From assembly GCF_024700885.2 (NCBI RefSeq), contig NZ_CP117016.1: DNA of 64,000 bases; one strand, written 5' to 3'. Below are positions 2,140-11,305 of the stretch, in pieces. A program made the position numbers and the translations under genes. Each line of letters opens with the position of its first letter. Position 1 is the stretch's first letter. The notes beneath the pieces are model-generated. The model worked only from the letters and a program-made list of their open reading frames with translations, searched no databases and was not told where the DNA came from. Source of the stretch: Escherichia coli (GTDB lineage: Bacteria > Pseudomonadota > Gammaproteobacteria > Enterobacterales > Enterobacteriaceae).

Positions 2140-2367
2140 GCCGAGTCCTTTGTGCGAGGAAAAATATCAGTATGGCCTGGTGATGGGAAAAAGGGCAGAA
2201 AATGTTGATGGTTTGTTACTTCCCAATAAATCACATATTTATCATGGTGATATAAATATTTTCCTAATTGTTCTTATCTGACAGATATCTCACTTAAGGC
2301 TTTCTTATAAATCTGTAGGGTTTCGCCTGTCAGCAGACAAATAACCCGATAAAACAAGGATGAGCAG

Positions 2368-5300
2368 ATGAGCGGAAAACCGGCGGCGCGTCAGGGCGAC
2401 ATGACGCAGTATGGCGGTAGCATTGTTCAGGGTTCAGCCGGGGTACGTATTGGTGCCCCCACCGGCGTGGCCTGTTCGGTGTGCCCCGGCGGGGTGACGT
2501 CCGGCCATCCGGTCAATCCGCTGCTCGGTGCGAAGGTCCTTCCCGGCGAAACCGACCTTGCCCTGCCCGGCCCGCTGCCGTTCATCCTCTCCCGCACCTA
2601 CAGCAGTTACCGGACAAAAACGCCCGCGCCGGTGGGGAGCCTCGGCCCCGGCTGGAAAATGCCCGCGGATATCCGCTTACAGCTGCGCGATAACACACTG
2701 ATACTCAGTGATAACGGCGGCAGGAGCCTGTATTTTGAGCACCTGTTTCCCGGTGAGGACGGTTACAGCCGCAGCGAGTCACTCTGGCTGGTGCGCGGCG
2801 GCGTGGCGAAACTGGATGAAGGTCACCGGCTGGCCGCACTCTGGCAGGCACTGCCGGAAGAGCTTCGCCTGAGTCCGCATCGTTATCTGGCGACGAACAG
2901 TCCGCAGGGGCCGTGGTGGGTACTCGGCTGGTGTGAGCAGGTGCCGGAGGCGGATGAGGTGCTGCCCGCGCCGCTGCCGCCGTACCGGGTACTGACCGGG
3001 CTGGTGGACCGCTTCGGGCGCACACAGACGTTTCACCGTGAGGCTGGCGGCGAAATCACCGGCGTGACGGATGGCGCAGGCCGTCACTTCCGGCTGGTAC
3101 TGACCACGCAGGCGCAGCGGGCAGAAGAAGCCCGGCAGCAGGCCATTTCCGGCGGGACGGAACCGTCCGCTTTTCCTGATACCCTGCCGGGTTACACCGA
3201 ATATGGCCGGGACAACGGCATCCGTCTGTCTGCCGTGTGGCTGACACACGACCCGGAATATCCGGACAACCTGCCAGCCGCGCCGCTGGTACGCTATGGC
3301 TGGACGCCGCGTGGCGAACTGGCGGCGGTGTATGACCGCAGCAATACACAGGTGCGCAGCTTTACTTACGATGATAAATACCGGGGCCGGATGGTGGCGC
3401 ACCGTCACACGGGCCGACCGGAAATCCGTTACCGTTACGACAGTGACGGGCGGGTGACAGAACAGCTAAACCCGGCGGGCTTAAGCTACACGTATCAGTA
3501 TGAGAAAGACCGCATCACCATCACCGACAGCCTGGACCGCCGTGAAGTCCTGCACACGCAGGGCGAAGGCGGGCTGAAGCGGGTGGTGAAAAAGGAACAC
3601 GCGGACGGCAGCGTCATGCAGAGTCAGTTTGACGCGGTGGGCAGGCTTAAGGCACAGACGGATGCCGCAGGCCGGACGACTGAGTACAGCCCGGATGTGG
3701 TGACGGGACTCATCACGCGCATCACCACACCGGATGGCAGGGCATCGGCATTTTACTATAACCACCACAACCAGTTAACGTCAGCCACCGGGACTGACGG
3801 GCTGGAGTTGCGCCGGGAATATGATGAATCCGGCCGTCTGATTCAGGAAACCGCACACAACGGCGATATCACCCGCTACCGTTATGATAATCCACACAGT
3901 GACTTACCCTGCGCAACGGAAGATGCCACCGGCAGCCGGAAAACCATGACATGGAGCCGTTACGGTCAGTTGCTGACCGTCACTGACTGTTCCGGTTATG
4001 TAACCCGTTATGACCATGACCGTTTTGGTCAGGTGACGGCGGTGCACCGCGAGGAAGGGCTGAGTCAGTACCGCGCATACGACAGCCGTGGACAGTTAAT
4101 TGCGGTGAAAGACACGCAGGGCCATGAAACGCGGTATGAATACAACGCCGCCGGTGACCTGACCGCCGTCATTGCCCCGGACGGCAGCAGAAACGGGACA
4201 CAGTACGATGCGTGGGGAAAGGCCATCCGTACCACGCAGGGCGGTCTGACGCGCAGTATGGAATACGATGCTGCCGGACGGGTCATCCGCCTGACCAGTG
4301 AAAACGGCAGCCACACCACCTTCCGTTACGATGTACTTGACCGGCTGATACAGGAAACCGGCTTTGACGGCCGCACACAGCGTTATCACCACGACCTGAC
4401 CGGCAAACTTATCCGCAGCGAGGATGAGGGGCTGGTCACCCACTGGCACTATGACGAAGCAGACCGCATCACGCACCGCACCGTGAAGGGTGAACCGGCA
4501 GAGCAGTGGCAGTATGATGAACGCGGCTGGCTGACACAAATCAGCCATCTCAGCGAAGGCCACCGGGTGACGGTGCATTACGGGTATGATGAGAAAGGCC
4601 GCCTGACCGGTGAGCGCCAGACGGTGCATCACCCGCAGACGGAAGCACTGCTCTGGCAGCATGAAACCAGACACGCTTACAACGCGCAGGGACTGGCGAA
4701 CCGCTGTATACCGGACAGCCTGCCCGCCGTGGAATGGCTGACTTACGGCAGCGGCTGGCTGGCAGGCATGAAACTCGGCGACACACCGCTGGTGGAGTAT
4801 ACCCGCGACCGCCTGCACCGGGAAACGCTGCGCAGCTTCGGCCGTTATGAACTCACCACCGCTTATACCTCTGCCGGGCAGTTACAGAGCCAGCACCTGA
4901 ACAGCCTGCAGTATGACCGCGATTACACCTGGAACGACAACGGCGAACTCATCCGCATCAGCAGCCCGCGACAGACCCGGAGTTACAGCTACAGCGACTC
5001 CGGCAGGCTGACCGGCGTCCACACCACCACCTCAAATCTGGATATCCGCATCCCGTATGCCACGGACCCGGCAGGCAACCGCCTGCCCGACCCGGAGCTG
5101 CACCCGGACATCACCCTCAGCATGTGGCCGGATAACCGTATCGCCCGTGACGCGCACTATCTTTACCGGTATGACCGTCACGGCAGACTGACGGAGAAAA
5201 CCGACCTCATCCCGGAAGGGGTTATCCGCACGGACGATGAGCGGACTCACCAGTACCATTACGACAGTCAGCACCGGCTGGTGCACTACACGCGGACACA

Positions 5301-6555
5301 ATATGCAGAGCCGCTGGTCGAAAGTCGCTATCTTTACGACCCGCTGGGCCGCAGGGTGGCAAAACGGGTATGGCGGCGTGAACGGGACCTGACGGGCTGG
5401 ATGTCGCTGTCACGGAAACCGGAAGTGACCTGGTACGGCTGGGACGGCGACCGGCTGACCACGATACAGAACGACAGAACCCGCATCCAGACGGTTTATC
5501 AGCCGGGGAGCTTCACGCCACTCATCAGAGTTGAAACCGCCACCGGTGAGCTGGCGAAAACGCAGCGCCGCAGCCTGGCGGATGCGCTTCAGCAGTCCGG
5601 CGGCGAAGACGGTGGCAGTGTGGTGTTCCCGCCGGTGCTGGTGCAGATGCTCGACCGGCTGGAAAGTGAAATCCTGGCTGACCGGGTGAGTGAGGAAAGC
5701 CGCCGCTGGCTGGCATCGTGCGGCCTGACGGTGGAGCAGATACAAAACCAGATGGACCCGGTGTACACGCCGGCGCGAAAAATCCACCTGTACCACTGCG
5801 ACCATCGCGGCCTGCCGCTGGCGCTTGTCAGCACGGAAGGGGCAACAGAATGGTGCGCAGAATACGATGAATGGGGCAACCTGCTGAATGAAGAGAACCC
5901 GCACCAGCTGCAGCAGCTCATCCGCCTGCCGGGTCAGCAGTATGATGAGGAGTCAGGCCTGTATTACAACCGCCACCGCTATTATGACCCGCTGCAGGGG
6001 CGGTATATCACTCAGGATCCGATTGGGCTGAAGGGGGGATGGAATTTTTATCAGTATCCGTTAAATCCGGTTCAGTATATAGATTCAATGGGACTGGCAT
6101 CTAAATATGGACACTTAAATAATGGCGGATATGGAGCGAGACCCAACAAACCGCCTACGCCCGATCCAAGTAAGTTGCCAGACATAGCGAAACAATTAAG
6201 ACTGCCATATCCTATTGACCAGGCCAGTAGTGCGCCTAATGTTTTCAAAACATTCTTCAGAGCATTAAGTCCTTACGATTACACACTGTATTGCAGGAAG
6301 TGGGTAAAACCCAATCTGACTTGTACGCCGCAGGATGATCCCCAGTATCCAGGGATGGAGACAAAGACAGCAAGTGATTACCTGCCACAGACAACTTGGC
6401 CAACAACTCAATTACCACCAGGATATACTTGTGCAGAACCCTATTTATTCCCAGACATTAATAAACCCGATGGGCCAGCAACAGCAGGGATAGATGATTT
6501 GGGTGAAATTTTAGCTAAAATGAAACAGAGAACATCGAGAGGAATAAGAAAATGA
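2368..6555 (+). CDS. rhsA: Rhs polymorphic toxin: PAAR-like N-terminus, YD-repeat core, variable C-terminal toxin tip
   Basis: 1395-aa ORF; N-terminal [17 protein letters not shown] (PAAR-like); many YD/RYxYD repeats; core ends with the DPIGL motif near nt 6016-6030, followed by an AT-rich ~175-codon tip of unrecognised family. Confidence 0.93.
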
Positions 6556-7121
6556 AAAGAGCTTTGTTCTTTTTGCTGATGATATTCGTTAGTTTTGGTG
6601 TTATAGCTAATTGCGAAACACAAGCTAAAGATCAAGATTGCTTTACCATTTTCACTAAGGGTACTATTTTTTCCGCGTTTCCTGTCTTAAATAATAAAAC
6701 CATGTGGAGATGGTATCAGAATGAGGACATAGGTGAGTATTATTGGCAAACAGAGCTTGGTATATGTAAAAATAACAAATTCACACCAAGCGGGGCGAGA
6801 CTCTTAATTCTCGTCGGATCACTACGCCTTAATGAAAATCATGCAACCAAAGGAACGTTGCAGGAGTTGCTAAATACAGCAGAAAAAACGGCGTTTCTCG
6901 GCGATCGGTTTAGAAGTTATATAAGAGCGGGTATCTATCAAAAAAAGAGCAGTGATCCAGCTCAGTTGTTGGCAGTCCTTGATAATTCAATCATGGTTAA
7001 ATATTTTAAAGATGAGAAGCCAACTTATGCTCGAATGACAGCACATCTCCCGAACAAAGATGAGTCTTACGAATGTTTAACAAAAGTACAGCATGAACTG
7101 CTTCGTAGTGAAGAAAAATAA
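6552..7121 (+). CDS. putative cognate Rhs immunity protein, secreted (N-terminal signal peptide)
   Basis: start codon overlaps the rhsA stop (ATGA at 6552-6555); GAGG RBS about 10 nt upstream; N-terminus [21 protein letters not shown] is signal-peptide-like; AT-rich like the rhsA tip. Confidence 0.6.
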
Positions 7122-7289
7122 AATCTCTTCCTGAGAAAATAAATTAACTATTCGAAAAAATATGTTCTTAATGGGTATCCAGGAACACCAGAAGGTCGAT
7201 TTGGAAAAATGGATTCCGATGGTAAGAATATCATATATTCTGAATGTAATGTTTTACCCACAACTTTTGAGATTCGATAGGTGTAGAGC

Positions 7290-7637
7290 ATGAGAAACTC
7301 ACTAATATTACTTATTATGATATTGTTTACAATATCACACTCAGTATTTGGAAAAGAAAATTCAGCGGAAATTTTAGTAAATAGTCGTGAAATGGCTTTG
7401 GAATTATCATATGTTTATATTAAATATATATACGGGAAAGAAAAAGCAGAATTTCAGAAACCATATAGTATTACAGATGACAATAATTGTTGGAAAATCG
7501 AGGGAAAACAACCGAAGACGTTAGGAGGAAATTTTACAATACTAATAGCGAAAAAAGATGGGCAAGCGTTGGATGTAATACACAAAATAATCCACTGTTC
7601 AGACGATTCAAATATTTTACCAAGGTGTGTTTCGTAA
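7290..7637 (+). CDS. small secreted hypothetical protein, possible orphan immunity protein
   Basis: 115-aa ORF with signal-peptide-like N-terminus MRNSLILLIMILFTISHSVFG; has a frameshifted paralog at 9240-9507; sits in the Rhs-associated AT-rich region. Confidence 0.5.
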   Translation: MRNSLILLIMILFTISHSVFGKENSAEILVNSREMALELSYVYIKYIYGKEKAEFQKPYSITDDNNCWKIEGKQPKTLGGNFTILIAKKDGQALDVIHKIIHCSDDSNILPRCVS

Positions 7638-7839
7638 CTATTTTGTGTACAATATGACTCTACATATCGACGAAAAAACCACTTGATTTGACAGGAACAC
7701 ATTCAAAAAAATTTCTTTTTCATTTCAGGAGCGATTTTCATCTGTTACTTGAAGTATCTGTGAGATTAAGTGACTCCCCCTAACGTCGTACTAAATAGTA
7801 ATTACTGGCCATACCGGGAGCAGTATTCGGCGCTTCCCA

Positions 7840-8080
7840 CATGCAGCAGAATAACCGCATCAGCGAAGATGTATTGTATTTTTACTATCACAATGTGTAC
7901 GGACGGTTTATGGAAAAGAATGAACATTAGATACGCGATGCGGCGGCAGGTTACACGGTTATCACTACGATAGCCAATACTGGCTGGTGCATTACCGCCG
8001 TGAACAATAGGACGCCGTACTGCTGGAAATTTCTTACCTTTATGACTCCCCGCGCCGCCGTATTGGGAAACGGGAAGCAA
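7840..8080 (+). pseudogene. decayed internal fragment of an Rhs core
   Basis: aligns by eye to rhsA nt ~5130-5370 (e.g. relic GYHYDSQYWLVHY and YLYDSPRRRIGKR vs rhs[14 protein letters not shown] and [13 protein letters not shown]); interrupted by stop codons; GC-rich patch inside an AT-rich region. Confidence 0.6.
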
Positions 8081-8654
8081 TCAAGATGAGGCTGATATAA
8101 TGTGCGGAATGCCTGAGTATTTTTAGAATAGGGGGGTAATATGTTTGATAGAATATATCTTGGTGATCGAGCAATAAAAAATTGAATTTGATTTATGGAG
8201 TAAACAAATTAGAATTCAGGTTAATTTAATCTCAAGGATAGCCTATGGTACAACAGAATGGAATTTTTATGATAATGAAGACTTAGAAGATGGTTATTTG
8301 GTATTTTCAGATGTTAGTTTCTTCAATATAACTCCTAATGGCTCTATTCCAGATGATTATATAATTTCAATAATTACAGATAATGTCAATGTTGAATATT
8401 TTGAATCAACTATAGTTGCTGTTGGTCAAATTCGAAACACAAATGTTGGTGACATTGATAATATTGGTGAATGTCAAATTTTCATCAGGTATAAAGACAG
8501 CTGGATTGAGAATAAACTCAAAGAAAAAATAATTGAATAACCATGTTATGTATAGACATTTTAGATGGAACGAACCAGAGGAAGGCATGCCTCCGACTTG
8601 GGTTATATGGGCACGGAGTTTTAGTGTAGTGAACTCAACGACGCAAACCGAATA

Positions 8655-8720
8655 ACCTGCCGCTGGCGCTTATCAGCACGTAAGGGACAACAGCGTAGTA
8701 CGTAGAATAATCCTACCCAC
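8655..8720 (+). pseudogene. short decayed relic of the Rhs core 3' end
   Basis: cctgccgctggcgcttatcagcacg is near-identical to rhsA 5811-5835 and to the yibJ copy at ~10669-10693; similarity decays downstream and is interrupted by stops. Confidence 0.5.
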
Positions 8721-8792
8721 GTAGTATGGACACAGGCCTAAGCGAGGTTCTGGTTTTCAAATTTTTCGGGAGTTAGATGATTGGAGGAACAG

Positions 8793-9158
8793 ATGATAAG
8801 AATCGCATTTTTAATAACCAATAAATTTCTTGAGATAGATAGTACCACTCTTGCTGGATATGATTTTAGCGGGATGAATCTACATCGTGCCACCCTCAAT
8901 GGTTATTGTCTTGATGGGGCGAAATTTGAAAAAACTCATTTAAGAAATGTAATGATTCAACATACATCAACTAGAAATGCTGTCTTTCGCAATGCGGCTC
9001 TGATGAATGCTATTCTGAATAACTCAGATTTCACTGGAAGTGATTGTAGTAATTCAAGGTCAATAGGTGAAAATTTTAAAGCAATAGATAATCATGGGAA
9101 AGATATAATAAATGGAAAAGGATTGCCTAATGTTTGCAAAATACATGACAACGTATAA
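8793..9158 (+). CDS. pentapeptide-repeat protein, hypothetical
   Basis: ORF with GGAGG RBS 5 nt upstream of ATG 8793 (the track ORF begins at an in-frame TTG at 8781); sequence shows pentapeptide-like periodicity (GMNLHRATLNGYCLDGAKFEKTHLRNV...AVFRNAALMNAILNNSDFTGSD). Confidence 0.5.
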   Translation: MIRIAFLITNKFLEIDSTTLAGYDFSGMNLHRATLNGYCLDGAKFEKTHLRNVMIQHTSTRNAVFRNAALMNAILNNSDFTGSDCSNSRSIGENFKAIDNHGKDIINGKGLPNVCKIHDNV

Positions 9159-9239
9159 GAAAATATTATTCAGAACCTATGTGATTGTATCTTTATTTTT
9201 ACATACAACACATGGGCGCAGTGTAATAATATTATTATA

Positions 9240-9507
9240 ATGCGCAAGTATGAAAGTGAGGGGAAATACACCGTTAGAAATTTGGTCAAAAATAAAGCTA
9301 TAGCATTGGAATTAGCTGAGATGTATGTTAAAAATCGTTATGGACATGATGCCGAAGAAGAAAAAAAAACCATACAAAATCATGGAATTACCAACAAGTT
9401 GGATTGTTGAAGGCACCATTGAATCAGACCAAATTGCTGGTAGGGTTTTTATTATAGAAATAGGCAAAAATGACGGGAGAATTCTAAATTTTGGCCACGG
9501 AAAATAA
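9240..9507 (+). pseudogene. frameshifted paralog of the 7290-7637 gene, interrupted in an A9 homopolymer
   Basis: frame A (9240-9410, MRKYESEGKYTVRNLVKNKAIALELAEMYVKNRYGHDAEEEKK) and frame B (9325-9507, ...PYKIMELPTSWIVEGTIESDQIAGRVFIIEIGKNDGRILNFGHGK) together align with the 7290 protein (SREMALELSYVYIKYIYGKEKAEFQKPYSITDDNNCWKIEG...ILIAKKDGQALDVIHKI); the frames meet at the A9 run 9361-9369; losing one A restores one ORF. Confidence 0.6.
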
Positions 9508-9611
9508 GTATGTAAGGATAAACAAACATCGTGTGTGCTGATGGCAGAGTAGGTGGAGGACTCCAGACAGTCAAACGATAGAAAAAGATAGTCTTTATGG
9601 AGGTTCCTGCA

Positions 9612-10454
9612 ATGTCGAATACATACCAGAAAAGAAAGGCAAGTAAAGAGTATGGTTTATACAATCAATGTAAGAAACTAAATGATGATGAATTATTTCG
9701 CTTACTTGATAATCGCAATTCATTGAAAAGGATTTCATCTGCCAGAGTATTGCAGCTAAGAGGTGGGCAAGACGCTGTTAGATTGGCAATTGAATTCTGC
9801 GCTGACAAAAATTATATCCGTAGAGATATAGGAGCATTTATACTCGGGCAAATAAAAGTTTGCAAAAAATGCGAAGATAGCGTTTTTAATATTTTAAAAA
9901 AGATGGCACTGAATGATAAAAGTGCTTGCGTTCGAGCTACAGCAATCGAGTCAACTGCTCAGCGATGCAAGAAAAACCCAATTTATTCACCTAAAATAGT
10001 AGAACAATCTCAAATTACTGCTTTTGATAAATCGGCTAATGTCAGACGTGCTACGGCATTTGCTATTTCTGTTATCAATGATAAAGAAACAATTCCACTA
10101 TTGATTAATCTGTTAAAAGATCCAAATGGAGATGTCAGAAACTGGGCCGCATTTGCAATAAATATCAATAAATATGATAATAGTGATATTAGGGATTATT
10201 TTGTGGAGATGCTTCAGGATAAAAATGAGGAAGTCCGTATTGAAGCAATAATCGGACTTTCCTACAGAAAAGATAAAAGGGTTTTATCTGTTTTATGCGA
10301 TGAGTTAAAAAAAAATACTGTTTATGATGATATCATTGAAGCTGCGGGTGAATTAGGTGATAAAACGCTACTTCCTGTTTTAGATACTATGTTGTACAAG
10401 TTTGATGACAATGAAATTATAACTTCCGTTATTGATAAGCTGAAGCGTTCATAG
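9612..10454 (+). CDS. yibA: HEAT-repeat protein
   Basis: N-terminus MSNTYQKRKASKEYGLYNQ at the internal ATG 9612 matches recalled YibA; repeated D/N-x-x-VR-x-x-A HEAT-like units; lies between Rhs modules. Confidence 0.8.
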   Translation: MSNTYQKRKASKEYGLYNQCKKLNDDELFRLLDNRNSLKRISSARVLQLRGGQDAVRLAIEFCADKNYIRRDIGAFILGQIKVCKKCEDSVFNILKKMALNDKSACVRATAIESTAQRCKKNPIYSPKIVEQSQITAFDKSANVRRATAFAISVINDKETIPLLINLLKDPNGDVRNWAAFAININKYDNSDIRDYFVEMLQDKNEEVRIEAIIGLSYRKDKRVLSVLCDELKKNTVYDDIIEAAGELGDKTLLPVLDTMLYKFDDNEIITSVIDKLKRS

Positions 10455-10495
10455 CGTGAGTTGCCTATGCACAGTGAGGTATTCCCGCCGGCACG

Positions 10496-11305
10496 GTGCA
10501 GATGCTCGACCGGCTGGAAAGTGAAATCCTGGCTGACCGGGTGAGTGAGGAAAGCCGACGCTGGCTGGCATCGTGCGGCCTGACGGTGGCGCAGATGCAA
10601 AACCAGATGGACCCGGTGTACACGCCGGCGCGAAAAATCCACCTGTACCACTGCGACCATCGCGGCCTGCCGCTGGTGCTTATCAGCACGGAAGGGGCAA
10701 CAGAATGGTGCGCAGAATACGATGAGTGGGGCAACCTGCTGAATGAAGAGAACCCGCACCAGCTGCAGGGGCGGTATATCACTCAGGATCCGATTGGACT
10801 GAAGGGGGGATGGAATTTTTATCAGTATCCGTTGAATCCGATAACTGATATTGACCCGTTGGGATTAGCGACCTGTTTATACAGCATAACTTTAGGTATG
10901 CTTTCATGCGTTTCAGATACGCCAAGTGATGATAATTCTTATGGTGTGCTTACTATTTCAGTCGCCTCTGGTAATAATGGTAATAATATGCAATGTAAAA
11001 ATAATCCTGGTTGTACACACTTACAAAATAGAGGCCCAATACCTCCAGGGGTATGGAGCTGGAATGTTAATGGTCCTGGAGCAACTAATAGAAAACCTAA
11101 TGGTATACGTTTAGTACCGTCAGCAAATACAGAAACGTATAATCGTGATGGATTTTTAACACATAGTTGTTTAAACGCTTTTGGTCCATCTTTAGGACCT
11201 CGATTCTGTTCCGAGGGTTGTATAACTGGTTCATCTAATGACATGCAAAAATTAAATGAGCTAATATTTTCAGAGCCAGATAGCACATTAACAGTGACGG
11301 ACTAG
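10496..11305 (+). CDS. yibJ: orphan Rhs C-terminal fragment (3' core plus alternative toxin tip) with L,D-transpeptidase-like motif
   Basis: nt ~10472-10840 are near-identical to the rhsA 3' core (5616-6070) including [18 protein letters not shown]; the tip then diverges; tip contains H-S-x14-S-E-G-C-I-T (His codon 11162-11164, Cys codon 11219-11221); symbol is positional only. Confidence 0.7.

What the first reader, a model, noticed from the sequence alone, without database searches (positions are those of the whole stretch)
7840..8080. Decayed internal Rhs core fragment inside the AT-rich island
A GC-rich patch aligns with rhsA nt ~5130-5370 at roughly 60-65 percent identity by eye and contains stop codons. 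It is an internal core piece, not the 3' end, so it is not a standard orphan tip module and more likely marks an old rearrangement.
Basis: seen in the sequence. Interest (0 to 1): 0.45.

Follow-up and report, generated by a model that had tools for sequence, protein, structure and literature searches.

The report
Deleted remnant of foreign Rhs toxin gene
The GC-rich patch is the dead stump of an Rhs toxin gene of a Salmonella-type lineage whose toxin was removed by a 1.2 kb deletion; it is an ordinary piece of gene wreckage, now explained base by base.

Summary
Window 7808-8074, slightly wider than reported, is homologous to the Rhs core (tblastn to the resident RhsA, E 2.4e-11) and carries two TAG stops and two -1 frameshifts.

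It is not a decayed copy of the resident rhsA. In a common alignment it is only about 58% identical to rhsA but 73-76% identical (E about 1e-50) to the cores of another Rhs clade, found in Salmonella enterica salamae/houtenae and S. bongori, and it shares that clade's indels.

In S. salamae, one intact 1414-aa rhs gene contains both the patch equivalent and, 1.2 kb further on, the toxin tail and a DUF6258 immunity gene. These match window 8069-8651 at 80%. In the window the two parts abut at a 6-nt microhomology (AACGGG, 8069-8074). So a roughly 1213-bp out-of-frame deletion removed the rest of the core and all but the last 18 codons of the toxin.

The downstream DUF6258 gene is itself frameshifted in a poly-A run.

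The same junction and lesions occur at the rhsA, rhsB and rhsC loci of E. coli strains (844 of 5426 complete genomes match the patch) and in E. albertii.

Verdict: a non-functional relic of a known kind. Low interest.

The parts
7808..8074 (+). Relic of an Rhs core, equivalent to aa ~905-993 of the S. enterica salamae Rhs gene at L021:4741-8985. It belongs to a non-E. coli clade. Disabling lesions: -1 frameshift near 7839/7840, TAG 7928-7930, -1 frameshift near 7938/7939, TAG 8008-8010.
   Evidence: blastn: 7810-8074 vs L021/L022/L023:7454-7720 at 75-76%, E ~1e-50; vs L015:146-412 at 76.4%, E 5e-54. Global alignment with lesions. Identity matrix. tblastn to RhsA. phmmer best full-length hits are Salmonella/Citrobacter Rhs.
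8069..8074 (+). Deletion junction. The 6-nt microhomology AACGGG is present once here. It occurs twice in the intact Salmonella gene, at L021 7715-7720 in the core and 8928-8933 in the toxin, 1213 bp apart.
   Evidence: Sequences printed. Homology to Citrobacter, Salmonella and E. coli O55:H7 toxin tails begins exactly at 8069.
8070..8126 (+). Last 18 codons plus stop of the Rhs C-terminal toxin that pairs with DUF6258 (...SNQDEADIMCGMPEYF*). It is out of frame with the core relic.
   Evidence: tblastn of the Citrobacter sedlakii Rhs C-terminus aa 361-378 to 8070-8123, 83%, E 1.8e-5. Nucleotide comparison. 96.7% to the intact E. coli O55:H7 allele, L014 7702-8344.
8141..8540 (+). DUF6258 immunity gene, disabled by loss of 2 A in a poly-A run (A6 at 8176-8181; the intact allele has A8). 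This creates a TGA at 8183-8185. RefSeq annotates only the 3' part (8238-8540).
   Evidence: Frames. The repaired 133-aa protein hits PF19772 from residue 4, E 1.2e-25. Intact 133-aa homologues exist in E. albertii, Citrobacter and Salmonella. A-run comparison.
2368..6555 (+). Resident full-length rhsA (1395 aa, E. coli-type core).
7290..7637 (+). Neighbouring orphan immunity gene (Imm-NTF2-2). This is context: it also lacks its toxin.
   Evidence: Pfam PF15631, E 7e-18; annotation

Best explanation
The patch is a non-functional relic of an Rhs toxin gene, or of an orphan rhs-CT/immunity module. Its core belonged to a clade now seen intact in Salmonella enterica salamae/houtenae and S. bongori, and more distantly in Citrobacter, not to the E. 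coli rhsA-type clade.

The progenitor read: core (from at least aa ~905) - core 3' end - C-terminal toxin - 15-nt spacer - DUF6258 immunity gene.

A single illegitimate deletion occurred between two copies of AACGGG, one in the core and one 18 codons before the toxin stop. It removed about 1.2 kb, out of frame, and destroyed the toxin while leaving the immunity gene.

The remaining core stump then drifted, or had already drifted. It carries two CAG->TAG changes, two 1-nt deletions and a strong GC->AT bias.

The whole block was later moved between the rhsA, rhsB and rhsC loci, together with the upstream toxin tip, by recombination between cores. In this strain the immunity gene has also been lost, to poly-A slippage.

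Shown: the homology, collinearity, junction, lesions and distribution.

Inferred:
- the order of events;
- that the deletion was microhomology-mediated slippage or illegitimate recombination;
- that the module came by lateral transfer rather than being an old Escherichia lineage;
- that nothing here is expressed or selected.
For: 1. One intact S. salamae gene (L021 4741-8985) contains both halves in the same order and strand. L021 7454-7720 matches window 7810-8074 at 75%. L021 8928-9520 matches window 8069-8651 at 80%. They lie 1.2 kb apart there and overlap by 6 nt here. The AACGGG copy is seen on both sides in L021, L008 and L011 and once in the window.
2. Clade assignment: 0.73-0.76 identity to the salamae/houtenae/bongori cores vs 0.57-0.58 to E. 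coli rhsA and the other Salmonella core type (L008), with the 15-nt and 4-nt indel states shared. phmmer over 1.84 billion representatives puts Salmonella/Citrobacter Rhs fragments on top.
3. Toxin tail: 18 codons at 83% aa to Citrobacter. It is followed 15 nt later by a DUF6258 start, exactly as in Citrobacter L011, Salmonella L008/L018/L021 and E. coli O55:H7 L014.
4. Pseudogene state: the stops and frameshifts are shared by all five alleles compared. O157 has an extra 5-nt deletion and E. albertii an extra TGA.
5. Neutral drift: mismatches to L021 by codon position are 25/15/24; GC->AT 45 vs AT->GC 13; GC 0.49 vs 0.61. Divergence between E. coli and E. albertii alleles in the patch (94.0%) is like that of the flanks (91.8-96.3%).
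6. No sign of function: no Rfam match at E<=1, promoter-like sites not above shuffles, no terminator, and the minus-strand ORF has no Pfam hit.
7. All orphan core fragments in the Salmonella loci examined keep the core 3' end (to aa ~1213-1236), with 5' ends from aa 877 to 1125. A stump ending at aa ~993 therefore needs a secondary deletion.
Against: - No undeleted progenitor with this exact core was found in Escherichia. The best relatives are only 75-76% identical, so the real donor is unsampled, and the '1213 bp' is measured on a Salmonella gene.
- The patch is a little more diverged from Salmonella (75%) than the adjoining tail plus immunity gene (80%; the tail alone is ~95% to Citrobacter/Salmonella). 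The two halves may therefore have had different histories before they were joined. For example, the deletion may have spanned from an older upstream relic into a younger module.
- A 6-nt microhomology could in principle be coincidence.
- The 5' boundary (~7808) and the 170 nt upstream of it (7638-7807) are unexplained.
- Expression was not tested.
Confidence: 0.85

Rival explanations
1. The patch is a heavily decayed internal copy of the resident E. coli rhsA-type core. It would have been left by an old duplication or rearrangement within the locus. This is the reading the first-stage reader's alignment implies.
For: It does align significantly with rhsA 5122-5368. Mismatches are spread over all codon positions and are biased GC->AT, as expected for decay.
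Against: It is 15-18 points closer to the salamae/houtenae/bongori clade than to rhsA. It shares that clade's indels, which no amount of point decay from rhsA would recreate. The adjacent toxin tail is non-functional for the same length of time since the deletion, yet is ~95% identical to Citrobacter/Salmonella. Post-deletion decay therefore cannot account for 40% divergence.
Confidence: 0.04
2. The junction arose by insertion rather than deletion. Illegitimate recombination at AACGGG would have placed a younger 'toxin tail + DUF6258' fragment next to an older, unrelated, already dead foreign core relic. Alternatively, a deletion much larger than 1.2 kb removed one or more whole modules lying between them.
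For: Divergence from Salmonella is unequal: the patch is 75%, the tail plus immunity gene 80%, and the tail alone ~95%. The locus is an array of many such modules.
Against: Both halves are found in the same order within a single intact gene of the same clade in S. salamae. One simple deletion therefore suffices. Relaxed constraint on the stump explains the extra 5 points.
Confidence: 0.1
3. The stump has acquired a function. Candidates are a promoter or leader for the downstream immunity gene, a small RNA, or the 92-codon minus-strand ORF 7802-8080.
For: The block is kept in 844 of 5426 E. coli genomes and in E. albertii, at three different loci.
Against: No Rfam match. Promoter-like sites number 5 against 7.2 +/- 2.9 in shuffles, and none lies in 7808-8140. 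No terminator. No Pfam hit for the minus-strand ORF. The patch is no more conserved than its flanks, and O157 carries a further 5-nt deletion. The gene it would serve is itself frameshifted in every E. coli patch allele examined.
Confidence: 0.03

Closest known systems
Rhs 'gene relics' and dissociated core fragments downstream of rhs genes (Jackson et al. 2009, BMC Genomics 10:584, PMC2935791)
   Same: A partial Rhs core lying downstream of a full-length rhs gene in an AT-rich array of displaced tips. That paper also reports that E. coli has lost rhs clades other than its expanded Clade I.
   Different: The fragments described there consist of a partial core, the full core 3' repeat and a recognisable C-terminal tip, and are nearly identical to the core of the rhs gene immediately upstream. 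This stump lacks the core 3' end and the tip. It belongs to a clade different from the upstream gene.
Orphan rhs-CT/rhsI toxin-immunity modules (Poole et al. 2011, PMC3150448; Koskiniemi et al. 2014, PMC3967940)
   Same: 5'-truncated core fragment, then toxin, then cognate immunity gene, stacked behind the main rhs gene. Intact counterparts of this very module exist: Salmonella L008:6216-8402 as an orphan, and L021 and E. coli O55:H7 L014 as the main gene.
   Different: Here the module has lost 1.2 kb, including the core 3' homology needed to recombine with the main gene and almost the whole toxin. It therefore cannot be re-activated in the way described for Salmonella orphans.
Orphan immunity genes without a cognate effector (e.g. 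Serratia Rhs NADase immunity, PMC10539506; Bacteroidales orphan immunity, PMC12247911)
   Same: The deletion left an immunity gene with no toxin. Some E. coli strains (O55:H7, O103, O121) deploy the matching toxin on RhsA, so an intact copy could in principle protect against them.
   Different: In this window, and in the other E. coli patch alleles examined, the immunity gene is frameshifted (A6 or A7 instead of A8). Protection is unlikely here and was not tested.

Membership tests
Rhs / YD-repeat core | Significant sequence homology to the Rhs core shell region | tested here: met
   tblastn to RhsA E 2.4e-11. blastn to Salmonella Rhs cores E ~1e-50. 50 phmmer hits at E<=1e-3; those inspected or named are Rhs / YD-repeat proteins or short ORFs called on such relics.
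Rhs / YD-repeat core | Match to curated Pfam models (RHS_repeat, TEN_YD-shell, RHS) | tested here: not met
   The repaired 71-aa peptide gave no Pfam family at E<=1. The piece is short, so this is a weak negative.
Rhs / YD-repeat core | Open reading frame | tested here: not met
   Two TAG stops and two -1 frameshifts, shared by all alleles.
Orphan rhs-CT/immunity module | 5'-truncated core fragment behind a full-length rhs gene | tested here: met
   Homology starts at ~7808, equivalent to aa ~905. Orphans in Salmonella start at aa 877-1125.
Orphan rhs-CT/immunity module | Retains the core 3' end (PF03527 RHS region, PxxxxDPxGL boundary) | tested here: not met
   The core ends at aa ~993-equivalent. 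All Salmonella orphans compared run to aa ~1213-1236.
Orphan rhs-CT/immunity module | C-terminal toxin domain | tested here: not met
   Only the last 18 codons remain.
Orphan rhs-CT/immunity module | Cognate immunity gene immediately downstream | tested here: met
   DUF6258 starts 15 nt after the toxin stop, as in Citrobacter, Salmonella and E. coli O55:H7. It is frameshifted in this window. That DUF6258 actually confers immunity is inferred from position only.
Salmonella salamae/houtenae/bongori-type Rhs core clade | Higher identity to that clade than to other clades, with shared indels | tested here: met
   0.73-0.76 vs 0.57-0.58; shares the 15-nt and 4-nt indel states. Mapping onto the numbered clades of Jackson et al. 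2009 was not done.

The most novel reading that the evidence does not exclude
The stump is the only surviving trace, in E. coli complete genomes, of an Rhs core clade otherwise seen in Salmonella and Citrobacter. On this reading it is a footprint showing that toxin/immunity cassettes cross both genus and core-clade boundaries carrying a piece of the donor's core.

Three observations together would point to recurrent selection to shed orphan toxins while keeping immunity genes, building an 'immunity array':
- this deletion;
- an independent toxin-truncating deletion of the same module in E. albertii;
- the toxin-tail-only state of the neighbouring NTF2 immunity gene.

The variable poly-A run might act as a slippage switch on the immunity gene.
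Probability: 0.3. Interest if true: 0.4.

Novelty: new member of a known kind. Interest (0 to 1): 0.2.

Why it matters
On its own it matters little. It is unannotated pseudogene debris in a locus known to collect such debris.

Its modest value is as a clean, base-resolved example of how Rhs arrays erode: a microhomology deletion that removes the toxin but not the immunity gene. It is also evidence that an E. coli/E. albertii rhs array once took in a module built on a foreign core clade.

For annotation, 7808-8126 should be marked as an Rhs pseudogene fragment. The 'DUF6258 family protein' CDS should be marked as a frameshifted pseudogene.

Tried and rejected
- The word-indexed protein search with the repaired patch peptide returned only a 55-aa ORF called on a variant of the patch itself.
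- Pfam on the repaired peptide found nothing.
- The toxin domain has no Pfam, NCBIfam or PDB sequence match, so its activity stays unknown.
- Full-text search for 'DUF6258' found 0 papers.
- Rfam and promoter/terminator scans of the region found nothing above chance.
- I first read the 13-nt shortfall against rhsA between the two aligned segments as a deletion in the patch. That was wrong. Most of it is a clade-specific 15-nt indel, and the real lesion there is a single 1-nt deletion.
- I first compared the patch with the Salmonella orphan that carries this toxin (L008). Identity was only 61%, because that orphan sits on the other core type. The right comparison was the salamae main gene.
- blastn found no relative of 7638-7807 in any fetched locus other than the patch alleles themselves.
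- An exact junction pattern scanned over 100,044 species representatives hit only E. albertii. Being an exact match, this says little about slightly diverged copies.

Full report
**Locus**

The window is the E. coli rhsA locus. selA (42-1433, -) and yibF (1531-2139, -) lie upstream. A 1395-aa rhsA occupies 2368-6555. yibH/yibI/mtlA lie downstream.

Between rhsA and yibH is a low-GC array of immunity genes and gene fragments:
- a ybfC-like gene at 6552-7121;
- an Imm-NTF2-2 gene at 7290-7637;
- a 'DUF6258 family protein' at 8238-8540;
- pentapeptide-repeat and NTF2 fragments;
- yibA;
- an Rhs-tip/Tlde1 orphan with Imm57.

The stretch 7638-8237, which holds the finding, carries no annotation in any RefSeq genome listed.

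Yes.
- tblastn of the resident RhsA against the island puts aa 919-946 on 7841-7924 and aa 959-1000 on 7948-8073, in two frames, E 2.4e-11.
- blastn gives 7960-8074 vs 5254-5368 at 65%, E 4.5e-9.
- The local alignment score of 72 compares with 25.5 +/- 2.2 for shuffles.
- In-frame stops are present.

**What is it derived from?**

It is not derived from rhsA. A phmmer search of the repaired peptide against 1.84 billion representatives gave only 50 hits at E<=1e-3. The best full-length ones are Rhs fragments from Salmonella enterica, S. bongori and Citrobacter amalonaticus/sedlakii. They share motifs with the patch that rhsA lacks (EKDERQIRDGG..., [26 protein letters not shown]).

At the DNA level, window 7810-8074 is:
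- 76.4% identical to a S. enterica houtenae rhs (L015:146-412, E 5e-54);
- 75-76% identical to S. enterica salamae (L021-L023:7454-7720);
- 71-75% identical to S. bongori cores.

In one common alignment the patch is 0.73-0.76 identical to these. It is only 0.57-0.58 identical to E. coli rhsA and to the other Salmonella core type (L008). It shares the 15-nt-shorter and 4-nt indel states of the first group.

No E. coli complete genome has a match above 80% to that clade's core. This fits the statement of Jackson et al. 2009 (PMC2935791) that E. coli has lost rhs clades other than its expanded Clade I.

**What happened to it?**

Homology of the window to the DUF6258 modules of Citrobacter sedlakii, Salmonella and E. 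coli O55:H7 begins exactly at 8069.

Window 8070-8123 encodes the last 18 residues of the Rhs C-terminal toxin that precedes DUF6258 in those genomes (83% aa, E 1.8e-5). The stop is at 8124-8126, and the immunity start codon follows 15 nt later at 8141. This is the same spacing as in the intact genes.

In S. salamae a single intact 1414-aa rhs gene (L021 4741-8985, at the mltA/amiC-argA locus) contains both pieces:
- the patch equivalent at 7454-7720;
- the tail from 8928.

The hexamer AACGGG occurs at both L021 7715-7720 and 8928-8933. The window has one copy, at 8069-8074, flanked on the left by core sequence and on the right by tail sequence.

The simplest reading is one illegitimate deletion between the two hexamers. 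It measures 1213 bp on the Salmonella gene and is out of frame. It removed the rest of the core and all of the toxin except its last 18 codons.

Orphan modules in the Salmonella loci examined always keep the core 3' end, to aa ~1213-1236, and start anywhere from aa 877 to 1125. The stump's 5' end (aa ~905) is therefore ordinary, and its 3' end (aa ~993) is what the deletion explains.

**State of the stump**

Relative to L021 it has:
- a -1 frameshift near 7839/7840;
- CAG->TAG at 7928-7930;
- a -1 frameshift near 7938/7939;
- CAG->TAG at 8008-8010.

Mismatches are spread 25/15/24 over codon positions. GC->AT changes outnumber AT->GC changes 45 to 13. GC is 0.49 against 0.61. This is the signature of unconstrained drift.

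All lesions and the junction are shared by alleles at rhsC (BL21 and O157:H7), rhsB (strain EBJ003) and in E. albertii. Later private lesions were added: a 5-nt deletion in O157 and a TGA in E. albertii. Between E. coli and E. albertii the patch (94.0%) is no better conserved than its flanks.

Rfam, promoter and terminator scans and Pfam on the antisense ORF give nothing.

**Distribution**

The patch is found in 844 of 5426 complete E. coli genomes, always at >=95% identity and always unannotated. It travels with the upstream tip: window 5050-8709 is shared with the rhsC-locus orphan of BL21, and 2367-10768 with the rhsB locus of EBJ003. K-12 lacks it; homology stops after ybfC.

An exact junction pattern hit only E. 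albertii among 100,044 species representatives.

Thirty-nine E. coli genomes (listed examples include O55:H7, O103 and O121 strains) match at least 80% of the Salmonella core-plus-toxin query. In the one examined (O55:H7, L014) the intact toxin is fused to an E. coli-type core as the main rhsA gene, followed by an intact 133-aa DUF6258. Window 8069-8709 is 96.7% identical to that allele.

**The immunity gene**

A repaired translation from the ATG at 8141 matches PF19772 from residue 4 (E 1.2e-25). It also matches intact 133-aa proteins in E. albertii, Citrobacter and Salmonella.

The window has A6 where the intact E. coli allele has A8. BL21, O157 and EBJ003 have A7. The gene is therefore dead here, by a different slippage step than in those strains.

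**Caveats**

- The donor is unsampled: the best identity is 76%.
- The stump is 5 points more diverged from Salmonella than the adjoining tail plus immunity gene, and the tail alone is ~95% identical. A larger deletion reaching from an older relic into a younger module cannot be excluded.
- The 170 nt upstream (7638-7807) has no recognised relative.
- Non-function is inferred from sequence, not measured.

**Verdict**

This is a real, correctly spotted feature whose nature is ordinary: the deleted, drifting stump of an Rhs toxin gene. The implied derivation from rhsA and 'not a tip module' are not right. Interest is low. The kind is known and this instance is undescribed.

Noticed in passing
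window 8141-8540 (poly-A at 8176-8181): The DUF6258 immunity gene is frameshifted in a homopolymer. It is A6 here, A7 in BL21, O157:H7 and EBJ003, and A8 in the intact O55:H7 allele. Salmonella and Citrobacter have a non-homopolymeric AAGAAAAT at this position. RefSeq annotates only the 3' part, as an apparently intact CDS.
   Followed up: partly
window ~7160-7285: Upstream of the Imm-NTF2-2 gene (7290-7637), one frame reads ...GYPGTPEGRFGKMDSDGKNII.... This resembles the C-terminal tail of the DUF4329-type Rhs toxin that precedes an Imm-NTF2-2 gene in S. salamae L023 (pairwise BLASTP E 3e-6 over 21 aa). A second immunity gene may therefore be preceded by only the tail of its toxin.
   Followed up: partly
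window 8656-8709: A 54-nt piece of E. coli-type Rhs core (aa ~1149-1166 equivalent; 85-93% identical to K-12 rhsC/ybfO cores) lies just after DUF6258. Homology to the BL21 and E. albertii arrays ends at 8709, which suggests another truncation junction before the pentapeptide-repeat fragments.
   Followed up: partly
L005 and L007 (E. albertii), about 7350-8004: A different allele of the same module has no patch. It keeps toxin residues ~287-372 plus a 16-aa core bit and an intact DUF6258, and has a ~36-nt loss at the toxin-end/immunity-start boundary. This looks like an independent toxin-truncating deletion.
   Followed up: partly
L021:8300-8985 / L011:600-1137 (toxin domain absent from the window): The ~180-aa C-terminal toxin that pairs with DUF6258 has no Pfam, NCBIfam or PDB sequence match, and no paper in the library mentions DUF6258. 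This is an uncharacterised toxin/immunity pair that some E. coli O55:H7, O103 and O121 strains carry on RhsA.
   Followed up: partly
window 5050-8709 and 2367-10768: The same toxin tip plus downstream array sits at three chromosomal rhs loci in different strains: rhsA here, rhsC in BL21 and O157:H7, and rhsB in EBJ003. Identity is 96-98%, showing wholesale exchange of arrays between loci.
   Followed up: yes
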